Source: a virus
Lineage: Duplodnaviria > Heunggongvirae > Uroviricota > Caudoviricetes
Reading direction: 5' to 3' (one strand)
IMG/VR virus record: IMGVR_UViG_2579778884_000012
DNA: 38,749 nt
This document shows positions 1,935 through 33,400 of this stretch, in pieces. The stretch's first letter is position 1. Each line of letters opens with the position of its first letter. Position numbers and translations under genes: made by a program. The notes beneath the pieces were generated by a model. The model ran no database searches. It was not told the DNA's origin and saw nothing but the letters and a program-made list of their open reading frames with translations.

Positions 1935-3098
1935 TCACTCATCATCTTCTGTTTCGTACTCCACATCAGAAAGCCTGACCTCAAGCTCTAAGGACGTCGT
2001 GAAGCCGCTATTATTCAGAAAATGTGTCACCTTAGTGATTGTCCAGTCCTGCTCGTCTATGACGCGCTTAAAGCCTGACACCTTAACCGGTGTTTCCGTG
2101 TAAATATCTGCCCGACCGGTAGCCAGGCTGATGGAGAACTCCGCAACGCCCCGTTGCAGTTTATCCCACTTCGCCTGAGCGGCGCGCATGGCCTGCGCTT
2201 TCGTGGCATATACCGTGGTCAGGGCAAAAACATTGTCAGCCTCACCGGCCATGTATTCACCTTCGCGCGCTTCCGGCGCTTTTGGCGCTTTCTTCTGCGT
2301 GACTGGTTTCGCTTTCGGGTGCTCCAGTGCGCGCAGGTGTTTTTCTTTCTTTTTGCGTTTCAGTTTTACCTTCTGCTTTTGCGGCTTCGGGTCTTTGGTG
2401 TGAAGCCACTTTGCCGTTACGCCGGTATAGGCTCCACGGTCAGCAATCGCAAAATGGTGGCGGTCGCCGTCGCTGCGGGTTATGGTGACCTGCGGGATTT
2501 TTTTACCGCTGGCCGTCACCCCCTGCCCCGCTTTGAGAAACAACAGTTTTCCCATTTTTACCGAGACCTCACCGCCGTTGCGTTCTGCAAGACGGGTCAG
2601 GAATTTCGCATCAGACTCCTGCGACTGGTCGATGTGCGGAATTTTAATTCCGGCCAGTGACGGAGCGACACTGGCTTCCAGCCTGTTACGGGTGGCTATC
2701 GCCTCAACAATTGCACCGAGCGTGGTGTCATGCCAAGAGCCTTCACGGCGGGAATTGAGCGTCCCGCGAAAATCTGCACTCCGTGCGCGGATGGTGACCA
2801 CATCCGGTGCGCCCCGGTGTTCAACCTCATCAACGGTAAATTTCCCTTTGCATACCAGGGCAAAACCTTTCCAGCCGATATACACCGTCAGGACAGCGCC
2901 ACGAACCGGCAGCCCGACCTGCCCGTCGGCATCGTTCAGTTCAATATCAAGCTGGTCAGCCTCAAAGCCCCGGTTATCCGTCAGGGTCATACTCATCAGA
3001 CGGTCGCTGATATTGCCGGTAATATCCCTGCTGTCGAGCATCAGCATGTAATCCGGCGTCAGCGTACTGCCTGCATCAAATGTCAGCGTATCCAGCAT
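1935..3098 (-). CDS. D: Tail protein gpD, 387 aa
   Basis: Position between ogr and U; 387 aa equals P2 gpD length. Confidence 0.88.
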   Translation of the reverse strand: MLDTLTFDAGSTLTPDYMLMLDSRDITGNISDRLMSMTLTDNRGFEADQLDIELNDADGQVGLPVRGAVLTVYIGWKGFALVCKGKFTVDEVEHRGAPDVVTIRARSADFRGTLNSRREGSWHDTTLGAIVEAIATRNRLEASVAPSLAGIKIPHIDQSQESDAKFLTRLAERNGGEVSVKMGKLLFLKAGQGVTASGKKIPQVTITRSDGDRHHFAIADRGAYTGVTAKWLHTKDPKPQKQKVKLKRKKKEKHLRALEHPKAKPVTQKKAPKAPEAREGEYMAGEADNVFALTTVYATKAQAMRAAQAKWDKLQRGVAEFSISLATGRADIYTETPVKVSGFKRVIDEQDWTITKVTHFLNNSGFTTSLELEVRLSDVEYETEDDE

Positions 3099-3577
3099 TA
3101 TCCCGCCCCCGTCATACCTGTGAATCTGGTCGCCATACTGCCAGCCTTACCGATGAGCGACTCCGCCTGTTTACCGATATCGCCATAAAGCGCGGCCAGT
3201 GATTCATCAACGCGGGTGAGCGACAGCGTAAAATCAATTTTCCGGGGTGTGCCGTCTGCAAAGAAAATACTCCCTGTTTCACTCACCCTGCTGATGACAT
3301 ACATGCCGTAAATCATGCCGGTACCATCCAGCAACGGCCACGCCCGGCCTTCCTCTGCCATCAGTCTGAGCGTGGTCATCGTCAGCTTGCCGCCGGTCAG
3401 TTCGGGATAAAGCACACCGGCAAGCGTCATGTTTTCCTCACCAACGCCGAGAAACTGGTAGGCATCCCGTTTACCGATACGGGAATTTGACGGCCAGCGA
3501 TAATCTGATTCACGCTGCATGGTCTGGTGTGGCAGCGTCTGGCGCATAAAAACAAACATACCTAACGCGAGCATCAT
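3098..3577 (-). CDS. U: Tail protein gpU, 159 aa
   Basis: 159 aa equals P2 gpU; sits between T and D; start overlaps the D stop. Confidence 0.88.
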   Translation of the reverse strand: MMLALGMFVFMRQTLPHQTMQRESDYRWPSNSRIGKRDAYQFLGVGEENMTLAGVLYPELTGGKLTMTTLRLMAEEGRAWPLLDGTGMIYGMYVISRVSETGSIFFADGTPRKIDFTLSLTRVDESLAALYGDIGKQAESLIGKAGSMATRFTGMTGAG

Positions 3578-3591
3578 TTTTCGTCACCTCC

Positions 3592-6039
3592 TTAACCGTC
3601 ATGCATCATGCTGGCACGGGCGCGCGCACGTTTATCCCGCTCGTATTTTTCGAGCGCATCCTGTAACTGGCGGTCAAGCTGTGTCCCCGGTGCAGTACCA
3701 CCCGTCAGGCTGATGTGATATTCGTTTTTACTCTGGTCCACATAAGAGCGGCCAGCCGGTGCCGTGACCGGCTGATAAGCCTGATAGCCTGCATAAGAGC
3801 TGGTCGCCGGAATATAACCACCGGTGCCATACGTGGCGGCATGAGTTCTGGCGGCGGTCTGGTCAAGTGTGTCTGACTCTTTGTTGATGACCCCGAGCTT
3901 TTCCAGTACCCAGTCAATGCCGCTGCGTAATTTGTTGAACGCATTAAGCGGCAGCATCAGCGCGTCAGCCAGTGCCTGCCCGAACATGACGCCCGTGTCA
4001 CGGCAACGGTTCAGGGTGTCCTGGGTGGCTTTGACCGGTGCAATCAGGTTTTTAAACCACTGCCACGCGGCCTGTAACTTTTCGCCCAGCCAGTCAAACA
4101 CCGGCTTAAGTGGCGTGAACAGTTCTCCCACCGGAGCAAATGCCGCTTTCAGCCCTTCCACCACACCGCCAAAGAATGCGCTGACAGGCTCCCAGTATTT
4201 ACGGATAAGCAACGCCCCGGCGACAATGGCAGCCACCACGGCCACAACCGGCCAGCTAATCGCCCCGATGGCCGTCATAACGGCACTACCAACCGTCGTG
4301 AAGATTGCCCCCATTGCGCCTGCTGCCGCGATGATGGCATTGATGCCGGTGATAACCGGCCAGGCCACGAGGCCAATGGCACCGATGATGCCAGTAAGCG
4401 CCAGTGCGCCACCGGCAATGAGACCAATGGTTGACGCCAGTGATTTGTTTTTCTGTATCCAGCCGTCGAGTTTTAACACATACTTTGTGGCCGTCTGCAT
4501 GAGCTTACGCAGTGCGCCTTCCTGCTGGTCAAACAGGTCAGTCCCCACCGCCTCATAAGCGGACTGAAACTCCTTAAAGTCACCGCCGAGATTGTCCTGC
4601 ATGATATTTACCAGCTCTGCGGTCTTCCCGTCTGAGGCTTTAAACGCAGCGGTCAGTTTGTCCAGCTTTCCGGTTGAGGCGGCAGTCATCAGCACGGCGG
4701 CGGCTGAGCTGGCCTCCTCCCCGAAAATGGTTTTCATGTATTCAGCCTGCTGGGCAGTACCGAGCCGGTTTTTCTCAAAACTGGCCTGCATTTCTTTCAG
4801 AATGGTAAATACTGGTCGGGTATTCCCTTTACTGTCTGAGGTTTTCACGCCAAGCTCTTTGAGTGCATCCCATGCTTTTCCCGTTGGTGCCTGCAGGCGA
4901 CTTAACACGGCACGGCTTCCCGTCCCCGCCATTGAGCCTGTGATTTTTGCATCATGCAGCGCCCCGACCATTGCGGCGGTTTCTTCAATGCTGACACCGG
5001 CATTTTTTGCCACTGGTGCGGCATAGGTCAGCGCATCGCTCATGCCGTCAAAATCGGCGGCGGTTTTGTTCATCGTCATGGAGAGAACATCCCCGATATG
5101 AGCGACCTTATCGTTTGAAAGCTGAAAGGCGGATTTCATCCCCATCAGCAGGGCGGCGTTTTCTTCCATCGTGCGGCGGTTCGCCAGTGCCATATTCAGC
5201 GTGACCGGCGTTGCCGCCTGAATGGCATCAACATCCCCACCGGCTTTCGCAATGATAATCTGTGCACCGGCTGCATCATCCGCCGAGGCGGCAGTATTGT
5301 CACCGAGCTGGCGCGCCTGCTTGCGGAGTGCGGCCATTTCGGCGGAGTCTTTTGCCACACCTAGCACGGCCTGCAATTCTGAGTTTTTCTGCGCAAACTC
5401 ATAACCGGGCATCAGTAGCTTAACACCGGCCATCGTTCCCGCCGCCGCAATCCCCACACCGGCAGCGCCCACTGAGGCCATATTTCCGGCCAGTTCCTTT
5501 CCGGACTGATAACGCTGTTTTACTGCGTTAAGTTTTGCCTGTTGCGCACTGACACGCGCCAGCGCGTCGCGCTGACGGTTAAGCTGTGCGGTGGTTTCAC
5601 TGATACGGTTTTTCAGTCCCTGCTCATCATGTGCAAGATTGCGGGTATTAATTCCCACAGCGGCCAGTTCCCGCTGCTGGCGTTTAACGGAATCCGTCAG
5701 GCGGTTATATTTCGCCTGTAAGTCCTCCGCCGCACGCTTTGCGGATTCCAGCACTTTCGCCTGAGCACGGGTCGGACGTTCGGTGTTTTTAAACTGTGTG
5801 GCAAGGGCTTCGGCTTCCTGCCGAGCCTTTTCAAGTGCATGACCAGTCACGGCGAGCTGTGCACTGGTCTTGCGAAATCCCTCAATACGGGATGCGTGAC
5901 CGTTCAGCTCGCGCAGTGATTTTTGTGTGTCCCGGATATCCCCCGACAGCGACTTACTCGCTGTACGGATGGATTTAAACGGGCGGGATGCCTGGTCAAC
6001 AGCCCTGAGCAATACCTGTAATTTTACATTGTTACTCAT
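3592..6039 (-). CDS. T: Tail tape measure protein gpT, 815 aa
   Basis: 815 aa equals P2 gpT. Ala/Gly-rich hydrophobic central segment and coiled-coil N-terminal region typical of tape measure proteins. Confidence 0.9.
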   Translation of the reverse strand: MSNNVKLQVLLRAVDQASRPFKSIRTASKSLSGDIRDTQKSLRELNGHASRIEGFRKTSAQLAVTGHALEKARQEAEALATQFKNTERPTRAQAKVLESAKRAAEDLQAKYNRLTDSVKRQQRELAAVGINTRNLAHDEQGLKNRISETTAQLNRQRDALARVSAQQAKLNAVKQRYQSGKELAGNMASVGAAGVGIAAAGTMAGVKLLMPGYEFAQKNSELQAVLGVAKDSAEMAALRKQARQLGDNTAASADDAAGAQIIIAKAGGDVDAIQAATPVTLNMALANRRTMEENAALLMGMKSAFQLSNDKVAHIGDVLSMTMNKTAADFDGMSDALTYAAPVAKNAGVSIEETAAMVGALHDAKITGSMAGTGSRAVLSRLQAPTGKAWDALKELGVKTSDSKGNTRPVFTILKEMQASFEKNRLGTAQQAEYMKTIFGEEASSAAAVLMTAASTGKLDKLTAAFKASDGKTAELVNIMQDNLGGDFKEFQSAYEAVGTDLFDQQEGALRKLMQTATKYVLKLDGWIQKNKSLASTIGLIAGGALALTGIIGAIGLVAWPVITGINAIIAAAGAMGAIFTTVGSAVMTAIGAISWPVVAVVAAIVAGALLIRKYWEPVSAFFGGVVEGLKAAFAPVGELFTPLKPVFDWLGEKLQAAWQWFKNLIAPVKATQDTLNRCRDTGVMFGQALADALMLPLNAFNKLRSGIDWVLEKLGVINKESDTLDQTAARTHAATYGTGGYIPATSSYAGYQAYQPVTAPAGRSYVDQSKNEYHISLTGGTAPGTQLDRQLQDALEKYERDKRARARASMMHDG

Positions 6040-25429: not shown

Positions 25430-25602
25430 TGTCAGGAGTCCTGAATAGTGATTAGAGGAGTCACATGTCGGCATCAGTTTCCCGACGATGCGCATCCTCC
25501 GCCATCAGTCCCGGATGGCTTATCACTGACACAACAGCACCTTAGCGAATCGCGGGGCGCGACTCAGTAGCCTTGCCGTGTATTCATCACGGCGAGGTAT
25601 TC

Positions 25603-27375
25603 ATGACCATCACCACAGACACCACTCTTTTACACGACCCGCGTCGTCAGGCGGCGCTGCTGTACTGGCAGGGGTTTTCCGTGCCGCAGATTGCCGCCAT
25701 GTTGCAGATGAAACGCCCGACGGTGCAGAGCTGGAAACAGCGCGACGGCTGGGACAGCGTTGCCCCCATCAGCCGTGTCGAAATGAGTCTGGAAGCGCGG
25801 CTGACCCAGCTCATTATCAAACCGCAGAAAACCGGCGGTGACTTCAAGGAAATTGACCTGCTCGGACGCCAGATTGAACGACTGGCACGGGTAAACCGCT
25901 ACAGCCAGACCGGCAACGAGGCAGACCTTAATCCGAACGTCGCTAACCGCAACAAAGGCGGGCGGCGCAAACCGAAAAAGAATTTTTTCAGTGACGAGGC
26001 TATCGAAAAGCTGGAGCAGATTTTCTTTGAGCAGTCTTTCGACTATCAGTTGCACTGGTATCGCGCCGGGCTTGAGCACCGCATCCGCGATATCCTGAAA
26101 TCCCGCCAGATTGGCGCGACATTTTATTTTTCCCGCGAGGCGCTGCTGCGCGCCCTGAAAACCGGTCATAACCAGATTTTTCTGTCGGCCAGTAAAACGC
26201 AGGCGTATGTGTTCCGTGAATACATCATCGCCTTTGCCCGTCTGGTTGACGTTGACCTGACCGGTGACCCGATTGTCCTGGGCAATAACGGCGCAAAACT
26301 GATTTTTCTCGGCACCAACTCCAACACCGCACAGAGCCATAACGGTGACCTGTACGTCGACGAGATTTTCTGGATCCCAAATTTTCAGGTTCTGCGTAAG
26401 GTGGCATCAGGTATGGCCTCACAGAGTCACCTGCGCTCGACCTATTTCTCCACCCCGTCCACACTGGCGCACGACGCCTACCCGTTCTGGTCGGGTGAAC
26501 TGTTCAACCGGGGACGCGCCAGCGCCGCCGAACGTGTGGAAATCGACGTCAGTCATAACGCCCTTGCCGGTGGGCTTCTCTGTGCGGACGGCCAGTGGCG
26601 GCAGATTGTCACCATTGAGGACGCCCTGAAAGGTGGCTGCACACTGTTCGACATTGAGCAGCTCAAACGCGAAAACAGCGCCGACGATTTTAAAAACCTG
26701 TTCATGTGTGAATTTGTTGACGACAAGGCATCGGTGTTCCCGTTCGAGGAGCTGCAACGCTGCATGGTCGACACGCTGGAAGAATGGGAAGACTATGCAC
26801 CGTTTGCCGCCAATCCGTTCGGCTCCCGCCCGGTATGGATTGGTTACGACCCGTCACACCGTGGCGACAGCGCCGGATGCGTGGTGCTGGCACCGCCGGT
26901 GGTGGCCGGTGGCAAATTCAGGATACTTGAGCGTCACCAGTGGAAAGGCATGGACTTTGCCACCCAGGCTGAATCCATCCGCAAACTCACCGAAAAATAT
27001 AACGTCGAATACATCGGTATTGATGCCACCGGCCTCGGTGTCGGCGTGTTCCAGCTCGTGCGCTCGTTCTATCCCGCCGCGCGCGATATCCGCTACACAC
27101 CGGAAATGAAAACCGCAATGGTGCTCAAGGCAAAAGACGTTATCCGCCGTGGCTGTCTGGAATATGACGTCAGCGCCACCGACATCACCAGCTCGTTTAT
27201 GGCTATCCGCAAGACCATGACCAGCAGCGGACGCAGCGCCACCTATGAGGCCAGTCGCAGCGAGGAAGCCAGCCACGCCGACCTCGCCTGGGCGACCATG
27301 CACGCCCTGTTAAATGAGCCACTCACCGCCGGTATCAGCACCCCGCTGACATCCACCATTCTGGAGTTTTACTGA
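25603..27375 (+). CDS. P: Terminase large (ATPase) subunit gpP, 590 aa
   Basis: Internal Met gives MTITTDTTLLHDPRRQAALLYWQGFSVPQIAAM..., 590 aa as in P2 gpP; divergent from O. Confidence 0.9.
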   Translation: MTITTDTTLLHDPRRQAALLYWQGFSVPQIAAMLQMKRPTVQSWKQRDGWDSVAPISRVEMSLEARLTQLIIKPQKTGGDFKEIDLLGRQIERLARVNRYSQTGNEADLNPNVANRNKGGRRKPKKNFFSDEAIEKLEQIFFEQSFDYQLHWYRAGLEHRIRDILKSRQIGATFYFSREALLRALKTGHNQIFLSASKTQAYVFREYIIAFARLVDVDLTGDPIVLGNNGAKLIFLGTNSNTAQSHNGDLYVDEIFWIPNFQVLRKVASGMASQSHLRSTYFSTPSTLAHDAYPFWSGELFNRGRASAAERVEIDVSHNALAGGLLCADGQWRQIVTIEDALKGGCTLFDIEQLKRENSADDFKNLFMCEFVDDKASVFPFEELQRCMVDTLEEWEDYAPFAANPFGSRPVWIGYDPSHRGDSAGCVVLAPPVVAGGKFRILERHQWKGMDFATQAESIRKLTEKYNVEYIGIDATGLGVGVFQLVRSFYPAARDIRYTPEMKTAMVLKAKDVIRRGCLEYDVSATDITSSFMAIRKTMTSSGRSATYEASRSEEASHADLAWATMHALLNEPLTAGISTPLTSTILEFY

Positions 27376-28409
27376 TGAGCAAGAAAAAAGGGAAAACACC
27401 GCAACCTGCGGTGAAAACAATGACCGCCAGCGCCCCGAAAATGGAGGCATTCACCTTTGGTGAGCCGGTGCCGGTACTCGACCGCCGTGACATTCTGGAT
27501 TACGTCGAGTGCATCAGTAACGGCAGATGGTATGAGCCACCGGTCAGCTTTACCGGTCTGGCAAAAAGCCTGCGTGCTGCCGTACATCACAGCTCACCGA
27601 TTTACGTCAAACGTAATATTCTGGCTTCAACGTTTATTCCGCACCCGTGGCTTTCCCAGCAGGATTTCAGCCGCTTTGTGCTGGATTTTCTGGTGTTCGG
27701 TAATGCGTTTCTGGAAAAGCGTTACAGCACCACCGGTAAGGTTATCAGGCTGGAAACCTCACCGGCAAAATATACCCGCCGTGGCGTGGAGGAGGATGTT
27801 TACTGGTGGGTGCCGTCCTTCAACGAGCCGACAGCCTTCGCGTCCGGCTCCGTGTTTCACCTGCTGGAGCCGGATATTAATCAGGAGCTGTACGGCCTGC
27901 CGGAATATCTCAGCGCCCTTAACTCTGCCTGGCTGAATGAGTCGGCCACGCTGTTCCGCCGCAAGTATTACGAAAATGGCGCACATGCTGGATACATCAT
28001 GTACGTCACCGATGCCGTGCAGGATCGCAACGATATCGAAATGCTTCGCGAAAACATGGTGAAGTCGAAAGGCCGCAATAACTTTAAAAATCTGTTTCTC
28101 TATGCCCCACAGGGGAAAGCCGACGGCATTAAAATTATCCCCCTCAGTGAAGTGGCGACGAAGGACGATTTTTTTAATATCAAAAAAGCCAGCGCCGCTG
28201 ACCTGCTGGACGCGCACCGCATCCCCTTTCAGTTGATGGGTGGCAAGCCGGAGAACGTCGGGTCGCTGGGTGATATTGAGAAAGTGGCAAAGGTCTTTGT
28301 CCGCAATGAGCTTATCCCGTTACAGGACAGGATCCGCGAGATAAACGACTGGCTCGGTCAGGAGGTCATCCGCTTTAAAAACTACTCACTTGACACTGAC
28401 AACGGCTGA
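27375..28409 (+). CDS. Q: Portal protein gpQ, 344 aa
   Basis: 344 aa equals P2 gpQ; start overlaps the P stop (ATGA). Confidence 0.9.
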   Translation: MSKKKGKTPQPAVKTMTASAPKMEAFTFGEPVPVLDRRDILDYVECISNGRWYEPPVSFTGLAKSLRAAVHHSSPIYVKRNILASTFIPHPWLSQQDFSRFVLDFLVFGNAFLEKRYSTTGKVIRLETSPAKYTRRGVEEDVYWWVPSFNEPTAFASGSVFHLLEPDINQELYGLPEYLSALNSAWLNESATLFRRKYYENGAHAGYIMYVTDAVQDRNDIEMLRENMVKSKGRNNFKNLFLYAPQGKADGIKIIPLSEVATKDDFFNIKKASAADLLDAHRIPFQLMGGKPENVGSLGDIEKVAKVFVRNELIPLQDRIREINDWLGQEVIRFKNYSLDTDNG

Positions 28410-28570
28410 ACATCGCCGCCTGCGGGCGGCTTTTTTACATCCCGTCATCACGCCCTCACCACCGCACAAAACACCCCGCAGACACACCAACGCCCCAGCA
28501 GGCCGACTAAATGCCATCACGACGCGCTGAGACGCTGAAAAAATAAAATCAGCACCACCGCCAGCGCGCA

Positions 28571-28589
28571 GTGCTTTCCCCGCCTCGCC
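28571..28589. other. cos cohesive-end site (19 nt)
   Basis: GTGCTTTCCCCGCCTCGCC is the reverse complement of the P2 cohesive end as I recall it (GGCGAGGCGGGGAAAGCAC), about 160 bp after Q as expected. Confidence 0.75.
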
Positions 28590-28827
28590 CGCCCGCTTCA
28601 TGGGGCGGTTTTAATGCAGTTGCATAGATACTATGGATCCGCACCAGTCCTGACCGCACGCAGCCTGAACGGACATCCCCGACGCATGCAAAAACATTCA
28701 CTTGTTGCATGCAACGGCTTATTTAATGACAAATCAACTTAAATTTACAAAATCCACAGGTATGGATACTTTGCGAACATGATAGGCTTACGAGAATTAT
28801 CGTGCCTGTTTTTGAACGGAGAAAGTT

Positions 28828-29769
28828 ATGCAAGGTGAAGTTGACGAACAGCAACCAAATGAGATTATTTCGGAGTTTGGATACTATCCAGTAGAAGTTA
28901 ACATTGAGACTGAACAATTTTCTTTGCGTACTTTACCCGGTCTTATTGAGAACGTGGAACGTATTAACAATGATAAAAACGTTGTTAATGGTTGGATATA
29001 CCCTGGGAATCGAAAGGTATATAACCTTAATGGTGACACATGCACAATGCCTTATAGTTACCGAGTATTCGGCATGCCCAAAACGCACACACTAAAATTA
29101 AAAAACACATCCTCGTTAGAAACTCTCAACTTTGTTGTGTGGTGCCTCTCTTTTTTCAAGGGTATAAGATTGACAACCACTGACGCTGGTTTTCTTGATG
29201 CAACCACTATCAAGCCCACTAAGTTAACCGACTTTATTCTCGTTGGATGCTCTGAAAAAGAAGTAATAGAGCTAGCACTTAACTATATAAAAGACAAACA
29301 AAAAGATGATCGCTCCATTAAAAGAATAGCTGCGGTGATACACTCCCTATTCCTGTCACATAACCCACTATACCTTTCCTTTGAGAAATTCCAGTATCTT
29401 TATATGGCTCTTGATTGCTGTTTTGCTATAGCATGGGATGAAAGGGATAAAGTCATTAAAGAGAAAAAACCATCTCATCAAAATAGAGTATATTGGATGT
29501 GCGAAAATTACGGTGTAAAAATCCCGTCATGGGCAACAGATGAATGTAATGTTTCAGTTATACGCAATGATAATTTTCATGAAGCCATTTTTAATGGGCA
29601 ACCGCTTGGTTTCTCTAGTATCAATGATTGTCAATATGGTAGCGATATATTGCTACAAATGCAGGCTCTGGTATGTCGTCTACTAGCGGCAATACTCTCT
29701 GTAAATGATCGTAAATATATCGCATCTACAATCAGCTCGATAGAGTACCATTCATTAAAATTAACTTAA
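28828..29769 (+). CDS. Hypothetical protein with C-terminal HEPN-like R-x4-H motif (accessory cargo at the old/tin position), 313 aa
   Basis: AT-rich ORF with RBS GGAGAAAGTT ATG. Residues 246-251 are R-N-D-N-F-H (CGC AAT GAT AAT TTT CAT, 29563..29580), the HEPN-type motif, about 60 residues from the C-terminus. Not P2 Old or Tin by size or sequence. Confidence 0.6.
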   Translation: MQGEVDEQQPNEIISEFGYYPVEVNIETEQFSLRTLPGLIENVERINNDKNVVNGWIYPGNRKVYNLNGDTCTMPYSYRVFGMPKTHTLKLKNTSSLETLNFVVWCLSFFKGIRLTTTDAGFLDATTIKPTKLTDFILVGCSEKEVIELALNYIKDKQKDDRSIKRIAAVIHSLFLSHNPLYLSFEKFQYLYMALDCCFAIAWDERDKVIKEKKPSHQNRVYWMCENYGVKIPSWATDECNVSVIRNDNFHEAIFNGQPLGFSSINDCQYGSDILLQMQALVCRLLAAILSVNDRKYIASTISSIEYHSLKLT

Positions 29770-30088
29770 TGCTAACGCCTCACTTCGCTCGTTGTTCAAC
29801 TCCGCCAGCCTGAAAACAAGTTTCACGACTGGCGGCGTTCTCTATCGTCTGCGTGGTGGTGGCGCAACTCTGGACTGACCGATATAGTTAAACCGCCCGT
29901 AATTATCCCAGACTATTTCGGCACACCCGACCAGCTCGTCAGGCGTCAGATTTTCGTTGACCATAATCTGCTGTAAACGGTGAACAATGGCCATCAACCT
30001 GACACTTTTGGTGTTATATGTGGTATCTCACATGAGATTACTGACCAAGGTGCATCTTGGTTGACTCATTTCATATCCATCCACACCA

Positions 30089-30769
30089 CTACATCTTTAT
30101 TGCATATTTATTAAAAGACGCCCAGTTCAATAAAAAAACATTATTCATATACCATTCAATATAATTTTTATTTTTAGATTGACTGTCAAGTAGCACACAA
30201 ACATCAACCTGTTTATCAATCAATTTTGCAATATAAACCACAAACTCAACACTCGAATATCTCTTTGTGCCTAGCAAATATAATATTTCATCTGACAAAT
30301 AATTAGACTCATGTGAAAAGACATTATCATTTAACAAAATCAACCCGCCAATCGAGTCATTTAAATCCAAAACATCCTTTGTTGCATTTATTTGCTTATT
30401 AGCTTCCTTAACTATCTTTGTTTTAATATTTTCATAAGCAAAGTTCATTATATCATTTCTAAATCGCTTTGAGTCTGGGTGTCTTTTTATCAACTCTTCT
30501 AAATGAATAGCACCATGCCAGTTTTTTGCAAGCCAACTATCAGTTTTAACCAACTCATTCAGTTTATCATTGACATTCTTGACCCTGTCAGAAAAAAGAC
30601 TTTTCATCTCCAAAATTATCTTTTTATTATCAATAAGATAATCTGCCATCTTGCGATTCTGACCATCCTTCATCCGGAACTTATGATGAATATCATCAAT
30701 AGAAATCCCTTTTTCATGCTCAACAATGAATCTCTTAACATTGTTTTCTAATTCGCTGTATTGTTTCAT
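30089..30769 (-). CDS. Hypothetical protein (accessory cargo), 226 aa, probably co-transcribed with the upstream DUF2158-like gene
   Basis: AT-rich Lys/Asn-rich ORF; start 27 bp after the small upstream gene's stop, with a GGGGGA RBS; no motif I recognise. Confidence 0.6.
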   Translation of the reverse strand: MKQYSELENNVKRFIVEHEKGISIDDIHHKFRMKDGQNRKMADYLIDNKKIILEMKSLFSDRVKNVNDKLNELVKTDSWLAKNWHGAIHLEELIKRHPDSKRFRNDIMNFAYENIKTKIVKEANKQINATKDVLDLNDSIGGLILLNDNVFSHESNYLSDEILYLLGTKRYSSVEFVVYIAKLIDKQVDVCVLLDSQSKNKNYIEWYMNNVFLLNWASFNKYAIKM

Positions 30770-30796
30770 ACTTTCCCCCGTGAATTTTATTATGAT

Positions 30797-30988
30797 TCAC
30801 TTACGTGGACGACAAAGCATACCACTTTTACTCTCTGCTATTTCCAGTAAATCAATGGAGAATGACTCCTCGTGCAAAACTCCTTCTTTATCATGCCAAA
30901 TACATTTAGCATGAGTTTCAGTAGAGTCAGATACAGTCATTTTAAATCCACCGCTTTTCAAACAAACAACATCTGCAGGCTTTAACAT
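30797..30988 (-). CDS. Small DUF2158 (YodC-like) family protein, 63 aa
   Basis: From the internal Met with RBS GGAGATAAAA ATG: MLKPADVVCLKSGGFKMTV...CIWHDKEGVLHEESFSIDLLE, matching the DUF2158 pattern (V-x-LKSGG-x-MTV ... C-x-W) as I remember it. Track ORF extended by 28 codons. Confidence 0.55.
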   Translation of the reverse strand: MLKPADVVCLKSGGFKMTVSDSTETHAKCIWHDKEGVLHEESFSIDLLEIAESKSGMLCRPRK

Positions 30989-31114
30989 TTTTATCTCCAA
31001 CATTTTTAAGTAATGCATTATAACATAATGATATTGACGTAGATTTAATGCATGCAACCATATAAAAAACAATCAATTACAGTCAAAACTACTTATACTG
31101 TATAGATGAGATCC

Positions 31115-33400
31115 TTACTCAAATTGATGCCAGAATCCCGACCACTCATCAGCGACCGGATACGTGAATTTTTTCCCGTCATAATTTACGGTCGCGCCAC
31201 GCGCCAGCGCCTCAAGCTCCCATCGCTGCGGCCTGATACCGTTCTGAGCAAGGTCAACGCGGATACGGGTGATTTGCAATCGTTCAGACCGGGTCAGTCT
31301 GGCCGATGGCGCTATTTCATGCGGTTTTAACGGGCTTCCGTTTCTTTGCTGACGGTTTGGTCTTCTCAGGCCGTGTTTTAATGCACCTCTGAGCGCCCTC
31401 ACGACCTCCGGGTCATTCCATTCGATAACACCGTCATCTACCAGATTAAGCACTGCTGCGGCGTGCTCAGAAGGTGTGGGAGCCGGTAACGAAGTATCAC
31501 CACCGGTGAGCTTTCCACAGTTATTGACAGGACTCCGAGGCGCGGCGATGCCGCTTTTTAAAGTCAAAGGCTCAACGACCGGCACTTTCGGAACAATGCG
31601 CCAGTCCGTCGTTCTGGTGATATGAATATGACGCGCGCCGAGATGCGGCGCGTAAATGCCGACCACTCTCTCGACTTCTTCCTCGTACTCGTTAACGTCA
31701 TCCGACGGGCTACGGGCGACCCTGACAGTCTGACAATCGCGCGGGACATTTGCCCCGCCCTGCGCGCTGATATACAACGCAAAATCACCACTGTCTGCAG
31801 CGGCGCGTGCAGCCTCGACGCGCTCGTCAAACTCATCAGCAATGCTGACGCCGCGAGGCAATTTGCGTAGTTCACGGTAAGCCCCCATTGTCGGCAGGCC
31901 AACCGTTTTAAATTGCGGAATGCGCCACGTTGACGCCCATGCGGTAACAGCCGCGGCAGTGTCTTTCAGCGGCCTGCCGGTATCGTTATCGAGCTGACCA
32001 TCCAGTGCATAGCCATCGATGTTTTTTGAGATGTATTTCGCGATATACCCTGCAGCACCGCCCCGGTTAAGGTGTTTTGCCTGAAAACGGTTTCGCGCAG
32101 CTCCTCTTTCGTCGCCATCCTCTTTGAGCGCGTAGCGACGCATGATTTCAATAATCTGGTTACGCTGGCGTGGATTACAAAAAAGCATCATATGCCAGTG
32201 CGGCGTTCCGTCGTGGTGTGGCTCGACGACTCGCAAACCGTAGACCTGTAAATCATTATCCTTGAATGCCGTGCGCATCAGGCTCCAGATACGGCAGAGA
32301 TAACGCTGCGCATCCTTTGGATTAAATGCCTCATCGTTCCAGCCGTGATTAAGCTGAACGGTTTTACTTTCGCCTTTTCCGACCTGACGTGTCGGGTGAT
32401 ACTTTGACGGCGCGGTCAGCGTGATAAACATCCCCACATCACCCTCTGCGGCGGCGTAACGCTCAATACCGGCAATGGTGTTCATCAGCTCCATCCGGCG
32501 AATTTCAGGATTAGAAATACTGCCCATCACCTTACTGATAAGGTCGATGCGTTCGCCGGTTTCCCTGTTTTCAAGGTCACACGATTTAAGAAACTCCAGA
32601 TTTGCCTGGCGGCGCGCACGCACATCACGAATGGCATGTTTACTGGCATAAGGAGAACGGTCTTTATTGACCTCCCCGACAGCAATCAGTAACGCCTCAT
32701 GCCAGCGCATACGCTGGCCTTTAAGCTGATGAGTCCACCACTCATCGTTAAACAGACGGGCAATGGCAGAATATGCCTGCCTCGTGGTTATCTGTCCTTT
32801 ACGGTATTTTTTCCAGTAGAGCGGGGAAATATTGAAAGCACGTGCAGCGCCAGCAACATGACCATACAGGTGAGTCTGCGCCTCATCCGTAAACAGCGAT
32901 TCTTTTTCGCCATGTGCATCAACCCATGCATCGCAGAGTTCCTCATACATCATGAAAAGCTGCGATGAGATACGGGCGGCAAACTTTTTCAGCTCCTTGT
33001 CATTCATTCCAGGCAGGCGCGCATAGTGGTCACGCTCTGCCAGAAATAGCAACGACGCGTCGGTGTTCATTTCATGGCGCTGATTCACGCGCTCAATGCG
33101 CGGCCATAAACGACGCTGAAAAGTAGATGTGAGGAAATAAAACCCGTGCACCGGGCTTTTATTGCGCCGGATGTAGTCATAGCGTGAAGTAAACAGCGAG
33201 CGCAAAAAGTAAGGCAGGCGGTTAATCGTGGATAAAACACCTTGCACCTGACGCATCTCGTCACGTGTAAGGGGTCTTTCGCGCCCGACGGCCTCGCGTG
33301 GCGCGTTCCATGCATAAGCACCGGTAAACGCCTTACCGGTGCCTGCAGCAAATGCTGACGGAGGTACGCAGGTGTATTGCTCCTGGAAAGAATGACTCAT
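31115..33400 (-). CDS. A: Replication initiation protein gpA (rolling-circle endonuclease), 761 aa
   Basis: 761 aa equals P2 gpA; position after the early small ORFs. Confidence 0.9.
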   Translation of the reverse strand: MSHSFQEQYTCVPPSAFAAGTGKAFTGAYAWNAPREAVGRERPLTRDEMRQVQGVLSTINRLPYFLRSLFTSRYDYIRRNKSPVHGFYFLTSTFQRRLWPRIERVNQRHEMNTDASLLFLAERDHYARLPGMNDKELKKFAARISSQLFMMYEELCDAWVDAHGEKESLFTDEAQTHLYGHVAGAARAFNISPLYWKKYRKGQITTRQAYSAIARLFNDEWWTHQLKGQRMRWHEALLIAVGEVNKDRSPYASKHAIRDVRARRQANLEFLKSCDLENRETGERIDLISKVMGSISNPEIRRMELMNTIAGIERYAAAEGDVGMFITLTAPSKYHPTRQVGKGESKTVQLNHGWNDEAFNPKDAQRYLCRIWSLMRTAFKDNDLQVYGLRVVEPHHDGTPHWHMMLFCNPRQRNQIIEIMRRYALKEDGDERGAARNRFQAKHLNRGGAAGYIAKYISKNIDGYALDGQLDNDTGRPLKDTAAAVTAWASTWRIPQFKTVGLPTMGAYRELRKLPRGVSIADEFDERVEAARAAADSGDFALYISAQGGANVPRDCQTVRVARSPSDDVNEYEEEVERVVGIYAPHLGARHIHITRTTDWRIVPKVPVVEPLTLKSGIAAPRSPVNNCGKLTGGDTSLPAPTPSEHAAAVLNLVDDGVIEWNDPEVVRALRGALKHGLRRPNRQQRNGSPLKPHEIAPSARLTRSERLQITRIRVDLAQNGIRPQRWELEALARGATVNYDGKKFTYPVADEWSGFWHQFE

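What the first reader, a model, noticed from the sequence alone, without database searches (positions are those of the whole stretch)
29770..30088. GC-richer non-coding island with an unlisted 51-codon ORF between the two convergent cargo modules
The 319 bp between the 313-aa and 226-aa genes is clearly GC-richer than both. It contains an inverted repeat (CCGCCAG-N20-CTGGCGG, about 29804..29837) and a minus-strand ORF (about 29852..30007) translating to MAIVHRLQQIMVNENLTPDELVGCAEIVWDNYGRFNYIGQSRVAPPPRRR. It could be a backbone relic marking the seam between two cargo insertions, or a small regulator or antitoxin.
Basis: seen in the sequence. Interest (0 to 1): 0.35.

Follow-up and report, generated by a model that had tools for sequence, protein, structure and literature searches.

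The report
Stranded phage backbone between cargo genes
The GC-richer island is an ordinary leftover of conserved P2-family phage backbone (a beheaded small gene plus a conserved RNA-type hairpin) that marks the fixed border where these prophages swap their variable, probably defence-related, cargo genes.

Summary
The window is a P2-like prophage. The island (GC 0.50) has backbone composition and sits between two AT-rich cargo genes, ORF313 (0.37) and ORF226 (0.30).

On the minus strand (gene A sense) it holds three things:
- **30088-30030:** the 3' UTR of the ORF226 cassette.
- **30029-29842:** a 5'-truncated copy of a conserved small accessory gene (PSP3 gp37, phrog_11386). The family is 67-78 aa, a helical hairpin, with pN/pS 0.12. 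The start codon and first ~8 codons were lost when the DUF2158+ORF226 cassette replaced the usual DUF3850 gene. An in-frame TGA remains.
- **29841-29772:** a ~70-nt conserved element. It has a covarying hairpin that is stable only on the gene-sense strand, and a near-invariant tail ending in GGCGTTAG.

Homology between phages stops exactly after that tail. I counted 32 different downstream cargos. The same element directly follows the stop codons of three unrelated genes (gp37-like, 186 orf97, Tum).

The "backbone relic at a cargo seam" reading is supported. The "antitoxin or regulator" reading is not. The element matches no Rfam family and is not mentioned in the hotspot papers I could read. 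Its mechanism is inferred, not shown.

The parts
29772..29841 (-). Conserved ~70-nt structured boundary element ('module'). It starts right after the relic ORF's stop codon and ends in the near-invariant ...GAGGCGTTAG (GTTAG = 29772-29776). Only 2 nt separate it from the stop codon of the convergent ORF313.
   Evidence: The covariance model built from 51 distinct copies scores 88.1 bits at 29769-29841(-), and this is the only copy in the window. Majority-base frequency is 0.98 in the last 10 nt and 0.41 immediately beyond.
29798..29839 (-). Main hairpin of the module: AAC.CCGCCAG...TGAAA-loop-TTTCA...CTGGCGG.GTT.
   Evidence: MFE is -23.6 kcal/mol (minus) and -19.1 (plus), z -4.4 and -5.0. Cells paired 94.5%, 7 pairs changed on both sides, 0/500 shuffles reach the observed values. 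G-U 99 vs A-C 11, and the sense strand is more stable in 51/51 copies (-27.1 vs -18.2 kcal/mol). RNAalifold finds it independently.
29842..29997 (-). Relic ORF, 51 codons from TTG 29997 or 50 from ATG 29994, stop TAG 29842-29844. It equals residues 18/19-68 of the PSP3 gp37 / phrog_11386 family. It carries R30W (sense T at 29910) at a nearly invariant Arg.
   Evidence: phrog_11386 E 3.7e-26, aligned to profile positions 18-69 of 69. The family alignment A1 shows R30 as >=90% conserved. Alleles are compared.
29998..30029 (-). Untranslatable remnant of ancestral codons ~9-17 (...NTKSVRL). An in-frame TGA lies at 30028-30030. Homology to full-length genes ends at 30029.
   Evidence: Frame translation ...LM*DTTYNTKSVRLMAIVH. 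Alignment with 15 phages. BLAST breakpoints.
30030..30088 (-). 3' untranslated tail of the ORF226 cassette, found only in ORF226-context phages. It holds a small hairpin at 30042-30063. A 14-nt palindrome ATCTCAcaTGAGAT (30025-30038) straddles the junction.
   Evidence: This stretch is shared only with 720R8, P2-EC67 and other ORF226-context loci. Its fold is not significant, z -1.3.
28828..29769 (+). ORF313, the cos-proximal cargo gene. It converges on the module. It occurs alone next to the module in vB_YpM_46 and 613R3.
   Evidence: phrog_5937, function unknown. No PADLOC, Pfam or NCBIfam match.
30030..31131 (-). A-proximal replacement block: ORF226 (30089-30769) plus a DUF2158 ORF (30797-31072). 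It took the place of the usual DUF3850 gene and the first codons of the small gene.
   Evidence: No homology to vB_YpM_46 across 30030-31131. The gene order A-DUF2158-ORF226-relic-ORF313-Q is the same in all 8 places shown, and the exact ORF226 protein is indexed in 4125 blocks of the collection.

Best explanation
The island is conserved P2/186-family backbone stranded between two independently acquired AT-rich cargo cassettes in the gpA-gpQ (tin/old) hotspot. It is read on the minus strand, the sense of gene A.

**Anatomy (shown).**
- The end of the ORF226 cassette.
- A small accessory gene of the PSP3-gp37 / phrog_11386 family. It lost its start codon and first ~8 codons when the DUF2158+ORF226 cassette replaced the usual DUF3850 gene.
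- Directly after its stop, a ~70-nt conserved element made of a covarying hairpin and a near-invariant tail ending in GGCGTTAG.

This element is the fixed A-proximal border of the hypervariable cos-proximal cargo slot. Everything up to GTTAG is conserved and everything after it differs between phages.

**Mechanism (inferred).**
- The hairpin acts in the rightward, gene-A-sense transcript as a 3'-end structure placed flush against a stop codon. It would protect or define the 3' end, or partly terminate, and so insulate the backbone operon from whatever cargo lies downstream.
- The conserved island as a whole supplies the stretch of homology at which cargo is exchanged between related phages by homologous recombination.
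- The relic ORF itself is most likely a passenger without its ancestral function.
For: **Identity.**
- P2-like gene order P, Q, cos, cargo, A.
- The segment is conserved in 59 phage records and in 387 places in 374 E. coli genomes.
- phrog_11386 match covers profile positions 18-69 of 69.
- Full-length homologues start MH(G/R)(I/L)PGEIPQH....
- The family is a real gene: pN/pS is 0.14 for codons 1-18 and 0.12 for codons 19-52, but 1.3-1.9 in the other two frames.

**Truncation.**
- In-frame TGA and homology break at 30029.
- The same junction occurs in all ORF226-context loci.
- Replacement block 30030-31131.

**Relaxed state of the relic.**
- R30W at a >=90% conserved Arg.
- Anti-SD pairing is -3.2 kcal/mol, against about -6 at genuine starts.
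- No promoter-like site between 30000 and 30088 on the minus strand.

**Module.**
- Covariation in the hairpin and sense-strand specificity.
- The stop codon is 0 nt from the module in 104 of 157 unique contexts.
- The upstream ORFs fall into three unrelated main families: gp37-like 98, orf97-like 31, Tum/DinI 23.
- 32 distinct downstream junction sequences, and a conservation step from 0.98 to 0.41.
- In phage 186 the module lies between orf97 and the annotated p95-transcript terminator t95b, so it is inside that transcript's 3' UTR.

**Recombination use.**
- Window vs P2-EC67 shows a divergent patch at 29217-29941 between near-identical flanks, with one end-point inside the relic ORF.
- gp37 and orf97 units, each followed by a module copy, occur in either order in different phages.
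Against: - There are no expression data, so neither transcript ends at the hairpin nor absence of the relic protein is shown.
- The hairpin has no U-tract on either strand, so it is not a canonical intrinsic terminator.
- In 186 the transcript is annotated to run past it.
- In PSP3-type phages no promoter-like site lies between the first module copy and gp37, which argues against strong termination.
- The near-invariant single-stranded tail is more conserved than the stem. A plain stabilising hairpin does not explain this, and it hints at sequence-specific recognition.
- The relic ORF is intact in 19 of 19 ORF226-context loci and keeps the high-confidence core of the fold. Residual function cannot be excluded.
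- All the relic copies stem from one truncation event, so they are not independent observations.
Confidence: 0.72

Rival explanations
1. The truncated ORF is still a working gene. Translation starts at internal Met19 (ATG 29994) and gives a 50-aa helical-hairpin protein that keeps the family's function (small regulator or protein-binding factor), expressed by read-through from ORF226.
For: - The ORF is intact in 19/19 ORF226-context loci, including an allele about 7% divergent.
- The retained residues 19-50 are the pLDDT >90 core of the predicted fold.
- The truncated lineage carries AAG>AGG and CTG>TTG just upstream of the ATG. This raises anti-SD pairing from +0.1 to -3.2 kcal/mol.
- Gene callers and PGAP call it.
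- Some distant family members have quite different N-termini.
Against: - The lost N-terminal 18 residues are under purifying selection as strong as the core (pN/pS 0.14).
- The SD is weak and only 3 nt from the ATG, and no promoter-like site lies upstream.
- R30W at a nearly invariant Arg is carried by about half the copies.
- All copies derive from a single junction, so intactness may only reflect youth and hitch-hiking with the module.
- The synonymous-looking differences from the P2-EC67 allele lie in a recombined patch imported from elsewhere.
Confidence: 0.2
2. The hairpin is simply a bidirectional transcription terminator for the convergent ORF313 (+) and ORF226 (-) units. Its conservation only reflects that role.
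For: - It sits between convergent genes, 2 nt after the ORF313 stop.
- In this window the stem is fully Watson-Crick, so it forms on both strands (-19.1 and -23.6 kcal/mol).
- On the + strand it is followed by the moderately U-rich CGUUCUCUAUCGUCU.
Against: - No U-tract passes the terminator scan on either strand.
- Across 51 copies the structure is selected on the gene-sense strand only: G-U 99 vs A-C 11, and antisense paired cells 84.9% vs 94.5%.
- In many phages the next gene is co-directional, not convergent (Wphi mth, S164 orf97).
- In 186 a canonical terminator (t95b) follows it.
- The conserved tail is unexplained.
Confidence: 0.25
3. The module works as DNA, not RNA. It could be a single-strand hairpin on the strand displaced during P2-type rolling-circle replication (a lagging-strand priming signal). 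Or it could be a dedicated site-specific recombination site at which cassettes are captured, analogous to integron attC.
For: - The strand specificity and the fixed orientation relative to gene A / ori fit a displaced-strand signal.
- The tail is razor-sharp and near-invariant, with 32 different partners.
- Direct module copies flank single-gene units (gp37, orf97), and those units occur in either order.
- The tail contains GTTGAAC and GTTAG, which resemble the attC GTTRRRY core (direct reading).
Against: - The element is asymmetric: hairpin at the 5' end and a 30-nt tail. There is no RYYYAAC partner box, and the ends pair only as AACGCC/GGCGTT.
- No integron-type integrase is present between gpA and gpQ.
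- The frequent tandem U-G/G-U pairs at columns 17-18/36-37 are favourable in RNA but are mismatches in DNA.
- There is no similarity to the P2 ori nick region.
- P2 itself replicates without the module.
- I found no case of precise cassette loss at module boundaries in the sample.
Confidence: 0.1
4. The small ORF is an antitoxin or anti-defence partner of one of the flanking cargo genes.
For: It is small and lies next to probable defence cargo. The ORF226-relic-ORF313 order is constant wherever ORF226 occurs.
Against: - The same gene family sits next to many unrelated genes (DUF3850, Tum/DinI, methylase, orf97, HicAB).
- ORF313 occurs with the full-length gene and without ORF226.
- There are no PADLOC or Pfam TA matches.
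Confidence: 0.03

Closest known systems
PSP3 gp37 / PHROG phrog_11386 (uncharacterised small protein of Peduoviridae)
   Same: The relic aligns end to end with profile positions 18-69 (E 3.7e-26). It is 73-98% identical to homologues in P2-like and 186-like phages. It has the same position downstream of gene A and the same element after the stop codon.
   Different: The window copy lacks the start codon and first ~8 codons, has an in-frame stop, and carries R30W. The family has no known function. Distant members carry an added ClpX-type zinc finger.
3' end of the phage 186 SOS (p95) operon: tum - t95a - orf97 - [module] - t95b - cos
   Same: 186 carries the same 70-nt element (95.1 bits with the model) directly after the orf97 stop codon. 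It is in the same orientation, next to the cos-proximal variable DNA. According to PMC6868368, citing Dodd and Egan 1996, retrons Ec67 and Ec86 replace about 180 bp between the cohesive end site and a terminator in a related prophage.
   Different: 186 has no gp37-like gene. The element there is unannotated, and a canonical U-tract terminator (t95b) follows 23 nt later. The window has no such terminator.
P2 'TO region' / gpA-gpQ defence hotspot (Odegrip 2006; Rousset 2022, PMC9122126; NAR 2026, PMC13586616)
   Same: The window has the same locus, with AT-rich swapped cargo between gene A and cos/Q. P2-EC67 ORF313 and ORF226 were deposited from this locus (AM157369). The 2026 paper notes many small intergenic pseudogene remnants in these loci, which it attributes to intense recombination.
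   Different: Neither of the two hotspot papers I could search (PMC9122126, PMC13586616) contains the words hairpin or terminator, and neither describes a conserved boundary element or the subdivision of the locus into an A-proximal and a cos-proximal slot. P2 itself lacks both the small gene and the element.
Moron / module boundary sequences of temperate phages (promoter-gene-terminator cassettes; conserved 'linker' sequences at module joints in lambdoid phages). This comparison is from my own knowledge.
   Same: A short conserved sequence at a gene boundary flanks horizontally exchanged genes and offers homology for recombination. A hairpin lies right after a stop codon.
   Different: Here one and the same ~70-nt structured sequence is reused after three unrelated genes, is strand-specific, lacks a U-tract, and has an invariant tail.
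Integron attC sites
   Same: A structured repeat follows each cassette ORF. There is a sharp junction next to a GTT-containing core, and cassette order is variable.
   Different: There are no paired R''/R' and L''/L' boxes, the architecture is asymmetric, no IntI is present, and no precise cassette excision was seen.

Membership tests
phrog_11386 / PSP3 gp37 small-protein family | Significant sequence match to the family profile | tested here: met
   E 3.7e-26, 92 bits. tblastn gives 73-96% identity in 34 phage records.
phrog_11386 / PSP3 gp37 small-protein family | Complete coding sequence with the conserved N-terminus MH(R/G)(I/L)PGEIPQH and its start codon | tested here: not met
   The match starts at profile position 18. 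An in-frame TGA lies at 30028-30030 and homology is lost beyond 30029. This is a truncated member, i.e. a pseudogene-like relic.
phrog_11386 / PSP3 gp37 small-protein family | Genomic position: rightward-transcribed, downstream of gene A, followed by the conserved 70-nt element | tested here: met
Intrinsic (Rho-independent) terminator | G+C-rich stem-loop | tested here: met
   Hairpin 29798-29839, -19 to -24 kcal/mol.
Intrinsic (Rho-independent) terminator | Run of U immediately 3' of the stem | tested here: not met
   The terminator scan reports nothing on either strand. The sense tail is GGAGUUGAACAACG and the antisense tail is CGUUCUCUAUCG.
Intrinsic (Rho-independent) terminator | Transcripts end there | not testable with these tools
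   No expression data are available. In 186 the annotated terminator t95b lies beyond the element.
Known RNA families (Rfam 15) | Match to a curated covariance model | tested here: not met
   The only hit is a chance match to S. pombe snR96, 24.5 bits against a gathering score of 100.
Integron attC recombination site | Inverse core sites RYYYAAC ... GTTRRRY that pair, with L''/L' boxes and extrahelical bases | tested here: not met
   The 5' end reads (A/C)(A/G)AAC without the pyrimidine run. The hairpin occupies only the 5' two-thirds and a 30-nt tail is left over.
Integron attC recombination site | Integron integrase nearby | tested here: not met
   The ORFs of 60 aa or more between gpA and gpQ are ORF313, ORF226 and the DUF2158 ORF, plus short ORFs without family matches near cos.
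Type II toxin-antitoxin (antitoxin) | Conserved adjacent toxin partner in one operon | tested here: not met
   Neighbours of the family differ from phage to phage. PADLOC and Pfam give no TA hits.
Type II toxin-antitoxin (antitoxin) | DNA-binding fold (RHH, HTH, AbrB, etc.) | tested here: not met
   The predicted fold is a two-helix hairpin. There are no Pfam, NCBIfam, PDB-sequence or viral fold-library (BFVD) matches.
P2 gpA-gpQ (tin/old, 'TO') variable hotspot | Located between replication gene A and cos/portal gene Q, holding AT-rich variable genes | tested here: met
   Gene order. GC values. 22-32 different downstream cargos in related loci. PMC9122126 defines the locus.

The most novel reading that the evidence does not exclude
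The ~70-nt element (strand-specific hairpin plus invariant GGGGTTGAAC...GAGGCGTTAG tail) would be a dedicated, previously undescribed cassette-junction element of P2/186-family phages. On this reading a sequence-specific factor recognises it, either as an RNA-processing or anti-termination site or as a single-strand DNA recombination or priming site. It would travel with each rightward accessory gene and organise how defence cargo is inserted, reordered and expressed, functionally analogous to integron attC sites. A side lead: the gp37-like protein beside it belongs to a family that in other P2-like phages is fused to a ClpX-type zinc finger, which suggests a ClpX-linked role.
Probability: 0.12. 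Interest if true: 0.65.

Novelty: new member of a known kind. Interest (0 to 1): 0.33.

Why it matters
The gpA-gpQ locus of P2-like prophages is one of the best-mined reservoirs of anti-phage systems. How its cargo is exchanged remains an open question in the papers I read (PMC9122126, PMC13586616).

This analysis shows three things about the locus:
- It has an internal fixed point that splits it into an A-proximal slot and a cos-proximal slot.
- That fixed point is a conserved, strand-specific structured element reused after three unrelated genes.
- At least one recombination end-point lies within the island.

This gives a concrete sequence to test for roles in transcript insulation and in cargo exchange. 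It also gives a practical anchor for delimiting cargo in annotation pipelines.

For the finding as submitted the message is modest. The ORF is a beheaded gene copy, not a new regulator, and its RefSeq name is wrong.

Tried and rejected
**Protein function of the small ORF family.**
- Pfam, PADLOC and NCBIfam gave nothing credible for the ORF.
- A PDB sequence profile search and Foldseek against viral structures gave nothing for the family.

**Identity of the RNA element.**
- Rfam at E<=1 over 28300-31300 gave only a chance snoRNA hit.
- I looked for a base-pairing target of the conserved tail inside the window. Only the element itself matched, and 3-mismatch hits were at chance level.
- I compared the element with the P2 ori nick region and found no resemblance.
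- I read it as an attC-like site, and the defining boxes are not met.

**Second structures in the tail.**
- A second helix AACG/CGTT is 91% paired but shows no double changes.
- A CTCGC/GCGAG hairpin is present only in the copies that follow tum.

**Other copies of the element.**
- The covariance model found no further copy in the window, in P2, or in the zinc-finger-type prophages.
- Plasmid hits turned out to be P2-like prophages inside IncC plasmids.

**Expression signals.**
- Promoter and terminator scans gave no promoter in front of the relic and no U-tract terminator.

**Literature.**
- Odegrip 2006, the source of the P2-EC67 ORF313/ORF226 record, could not be opened.
- Dodd and Egan 1996 was reached only through the papers that cite it.
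- I could not establish from accessible papers which strand P2 A protein nicks or the direction of replication. The displaced-strand idea therefore stays untested.

Full report
**Setting.**
The window is a P2-like (Peduovirus) prophage. It reads terminase gene P (25573-27375, +), portal gene Q (27375-28409, +) and the cos region. Then come ORF313 (28828-29769, +), the finding, ORF226 (30089-30769, -), a DUF2158 ORF (30797-31072, -) and replication gene A (31115-33400, -). The finding therefore lies inside the gpA-gpQ ('tin/old') variable locus, a known hotspot of anti-phage cargo (PMC9122126). The window's 319-bp segment and its portal gene are both 100% identical to the E. coli strain 4/0 chromosome.

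**Checking the observation.**
- The island is GC-richer. 29770-30088 is 0.489 GC and its conserved part 0.504, against 0.372 for ORF313 and 0.301 for ORF226. This equals backbone composition, 0.51-0.535.
- The inverted repeat is real, at 29802-29808 / 29829-29835. It belongs to a longer hairpin, 29798-29839, which folds far better than shuffled sequence on both strands (z -5.0 and -4.4, 0 of 200 shuffles).
The peptide is exact.

**What the ORF is.**
- The segment 29770-30029 is conserved at 76-99% identity in 59 phage records, including Wphi, PSP3, many Yersinia and Salmonella P2/186-type phages, and P2-EC67, which has the same ORF313/ORF226 context.
- The peptide matches phrog_11386 with E 3.7e-26, but only positions 18-69 of the 69-position profile.
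- In other phages the gene is 67-78 aa and begins MH(G/R)(I/L)PGEIPQH(N/K)TK(N/S)IKLMAIVHRLQ....
- In the window the same frame reads ...LM*DTTYNTKSVRLMAIVH. Homology with full-length genes starts at 30029, an in-frame TGA sits at 30028-30030, and there is no start codon before L18/M19.
- Of 100 loci examined, 81 carry an intact full-length gene. Eleven carry exactly this truncation, always joined to ORF226. Seven have other N-termini, and one (Wphi) is frameshifted.
- The family is a genuine protein-coding gene. pN/pS is 0.14 for codons 1-18 and 0.12 for codons 19-52, against 1.3-1.9 in the other two frames. Variable sites concentrate at third positions. The part lost in the window was therefore translated and constrained.

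**How the truncation arose.**
- Against phage vB_YpM_46 (A - DUF3850 gene - full-length small gene - ORF313), the window is 98.7% identical over 28633-30029. It shares nothing over 30030-31131, and homology resumes at 31132 in the last codons of gene A.
- The block DUF2158 ORF + ORF226 therefore replaced the DUF3850 gene and the first codons of the small gene.
- The exact ORF226 protein is indexed in 4125 blocks of the public collection. All eight places shown have the order A - DUF2158 - ORF226 - relic - ORF313 - Q.

**Is the relic still a gene?**
For:
- It is intact in 19 of 19 ORF226-context loci.
- It keeps residues 19-50, the high-confidence core of the predicted two-helix hairpin (H10-31, H36-59, mean pLDDT 76, core above 90).
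- The truncated lineage has AAG>AGG just upstream of the ATG.

Against:
- Anti-SD pairing is only -3.2 kcal/mol with 3-nt spacing, versus about -6 at genuine starts.
- No promoter-like site lies between ORF226 and the relic.
- The window allele and about half of the related copies carry R30W at an Arg conserved in at least 90% of the family.
- All copies share one junction, so they are one event.

I rate residual function at about 0.2. RefSeq nevertheless annotates the relic as 'meiotically up-regulated 80 protein' on well over a thousand contigs. No NCBIfam model supports that name.

**The element after the stop codon.**
- From 29841 down to 29772 (minus sense), the sequence AGAACGCCGCCAG-TCG-TGAAAC-TTG-TTTTCAG-GCTGGCGG-A-GTTGAACAACGAGCGAAGTGAGGCGTTAG is conserved in all these phages. 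Conservation ends exactly after GTTAG, whatever follows.
- On 51 distinct copies the hairpin is 94.5% paired. Seven pairs change on both sides (for example CAG/CTG to CAT/ATG, CGCC/GGCG to CGTC/GACG, CCAG/CTGG to CTAG/CTAG). No shuffle out of 500 reaches the observed values, and slid controls fall to 25-46% paired. RNAalifold predicts the same helix independently.
- The structure is strand-specific. There are 99 G-U cells against 11 A-C cells. 94.5% of cells pair on the gene-sense strand against 84.9% on the other. The sense hairpin is the more stable in 51 of 51 copies (mean -27.1 vs -18.2 kcal/mol).
- It is therefore selected in the rightward (gene-A-sense) RNA, or in that single DNA strand. 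It is not selected as the terminator of the convergent ORF313.

**Distribution of the element.**
- A search of viral contigs anchored on the element, independent of the gene, gave 246 instances and 165 unique contexts.
- The ORF ending just upstream belongs to three unrelated main families: gp37-like (98), 186 orf97-like (31) and Tum/DinI-like (23).
- The stop codon directly abuts the element in 104 of 157 cases.
- Downstream there are 32 distinct junction sequences. Majority-base frequency falls from 0.98 in the last ten nucleotides to 0.41 in the next ten.
- Seventeen loci in the first set hold two direct copies flanking a single gene.
- gp37+element and orf97+element occur in either order: S164-type is gp37 then orf97, PHB48-type is orf97 then gp37.
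- Phage 186 has the element between the orf97 stop and the annotated terminator t95b. It is unannotated there.
- P2 itself has neither the gene nor the element.
- In complete E. coli genomes the P2-type portal gene occurs at 1935 places, the element at 540 and the 319-bp segment at 387.
- Plasmid hits are P2-like prophages inside IncC plasmids.
- Rfam has no matching family. The two hotspot papers I could search never use the words hairpin or terminator.

**Mechanism.**
Shown:
- The element is a conserved, covarying, sense-strand hairpin with an invariant tail.
- It is placed flush against stop codons of rightward accessory genes.
- It marks the fixed A-proximal edge of the variable cargo.

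Inferred:
- It acts in the rightward transcript as a 3'-end structure that protects or defines the end, or partly terminates, and so insulates backbone expression from arbitrary cargo.
- The island provides homology for cargo exchange.

One recombination end-point is visible. Window and P2-EC67 are nearly identical except for a patch at 29217-29941 with 14-39 mismatches per 100 nt. Its right end lies inside the relic ORF.

Caveats:
- There is no U-tract.
- The 186 transcript is annotated to pass the element.
- No promoter-like site separates the first element copy from gp37 in PSP3, so strong termination is unlikely.
- A plain hairpin model does not explain the invariant tail.

The rivals are a bidirectional terminator, a DNA-level priming or recombination site, and a still-functional relic. 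They are listed with their tests.

**Lead on the protein family.**
- An exhaustive profile search found only 33 clusters at the 50% identity level.
- Six distant members (101-122 aa, E 1e-11 to 4e-5) carry the same N-terminal domain fused to a ClpX-type C4 zinc finger, PF06689. hhalign gives 99.5% probability for the shared domain.
- Two of the three I looked up sit at the same position in P2-like prophages, as the last gene after gpA before cargo/cos/Q.
- This suggests, but does not show, a ClpX-related role for the family.

**Verdict.**
The finding is real and explained. It is a backbone island holding a beheaded copy of a known but uncharacterised small gene and a conserved boundary hairpin, between two cargo cassettes. 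The relic is ordinary. The boundary element is a modestly interesting feature that matches no Rfam family and is absent from the hotspot papers I could read.

Noticed in passing
window 29842-29997 (-), and RefSeq records such as NZ_CP023849.1: RefSeq/PGAP names this 50/51-aa phage gene fragment 'meiotically up-regulated 80 protein', a fission-yeast name. The name is carried on well over a thousand contigs. No NCBIfam model matches the ORF, so the name looks like an annotation artefact that has propagated.
   Followed up: partly
P0142, P0145, P0146, P0147, P0150, P0153; loci L116:5001-5369 and L117:4001-4345: Distant relatives of the small-gene family are two-domain proteins. The gp37-like helical domain is fused to a C-terminal ClpX-type C4 zinc finger whose sequence closely resembles the ClpX N-terminal domain as I recall it. 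Two of the three I looked up occupy the same last-gene-before-cos position in P2-like prophages. This hints at a ClpX-linked function for the family.
   Followed up: partly
window 28828-29769 (+) and 30089-30769 (-): ORF313 and ORF226 have no Pfam, PADLOC or NCBIfam match, yet they are very common. The exact ORF226 protein is indexed in 4125 blocks of the collection, always with ORF313. ORF313 also occurs alone. They are uncharacterised candidates for anti-phage cargo in the hotspot.
   Followed up: partly
window 29217-29941: Compared with P2-EC67 (AM157369), the 3' half of ORF313, the boundary element and the C-terminal half of the relic ORF form a divergent patch of 14-39 mismatches per 100 nt. 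The patch lies inside otherwise near-identical DNA, which is the signature of a gene-conversion or recombination tract.
   Followed up: yes
L012 (phage S164) 3450-4701; L015 (PHB48) 2539-3732; L010 (186) 4605-5413: The 186 orf97 gene ('expression from plasmid blocks 186 infection') travels with its own copy of the 70-nt element. It is found either upstream or downstream of the gp37-like gene in different phages. The two units have therefore been reordered.
   Followed up: partly
window 30797-31072 (-): A DUF2158 (YodC-like) small ORF directly follows gene A here, in place of the DUF3850/ASCH gene (P2 orf91 type) found in most relatives. Gene callers disagree on its start (63-91 aa).
   Followed up: no
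window 30025-30038: A 14-nt palindrome ATCTCAcaTGAGAT straddles the cassette junction at 30029|30030. One half comes from the ORF226 cassette and the other from the truncated gene. It is probably fortuitous but could be a created protein-binding site.
   Followed up: no
L116:5369-5447: In a zinc-finger-type P2-like prophage the cargo is a HicA/HicB pair. It is preceded by a 77-nt spacer with four copies of GTGACTTCA (three of them extended to AAGTGACTTCAC), likely the HicB operator. There is no 70-nt element there.
   Followed up: no
window 29669-29844 (-): The only Rfam hit in the region is a sub-threshold match to S. pombe snoRNA snR96 (24.5 bits against a gathering score of 100). I judged it a chance match.
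   Followed up: yes
L106 (NZ_CP114566.1 1-6691) and similar ~200-kb IncC plasmids: Complete-looking P2-like prophage segments (gene A, element, reverse-transcriptase cargo, Q, P) sit inside conjugative IncC plasmids of Klebsiella, Citrobacter, Enterobacter, Providencia and E. coli.
   Followed up: no
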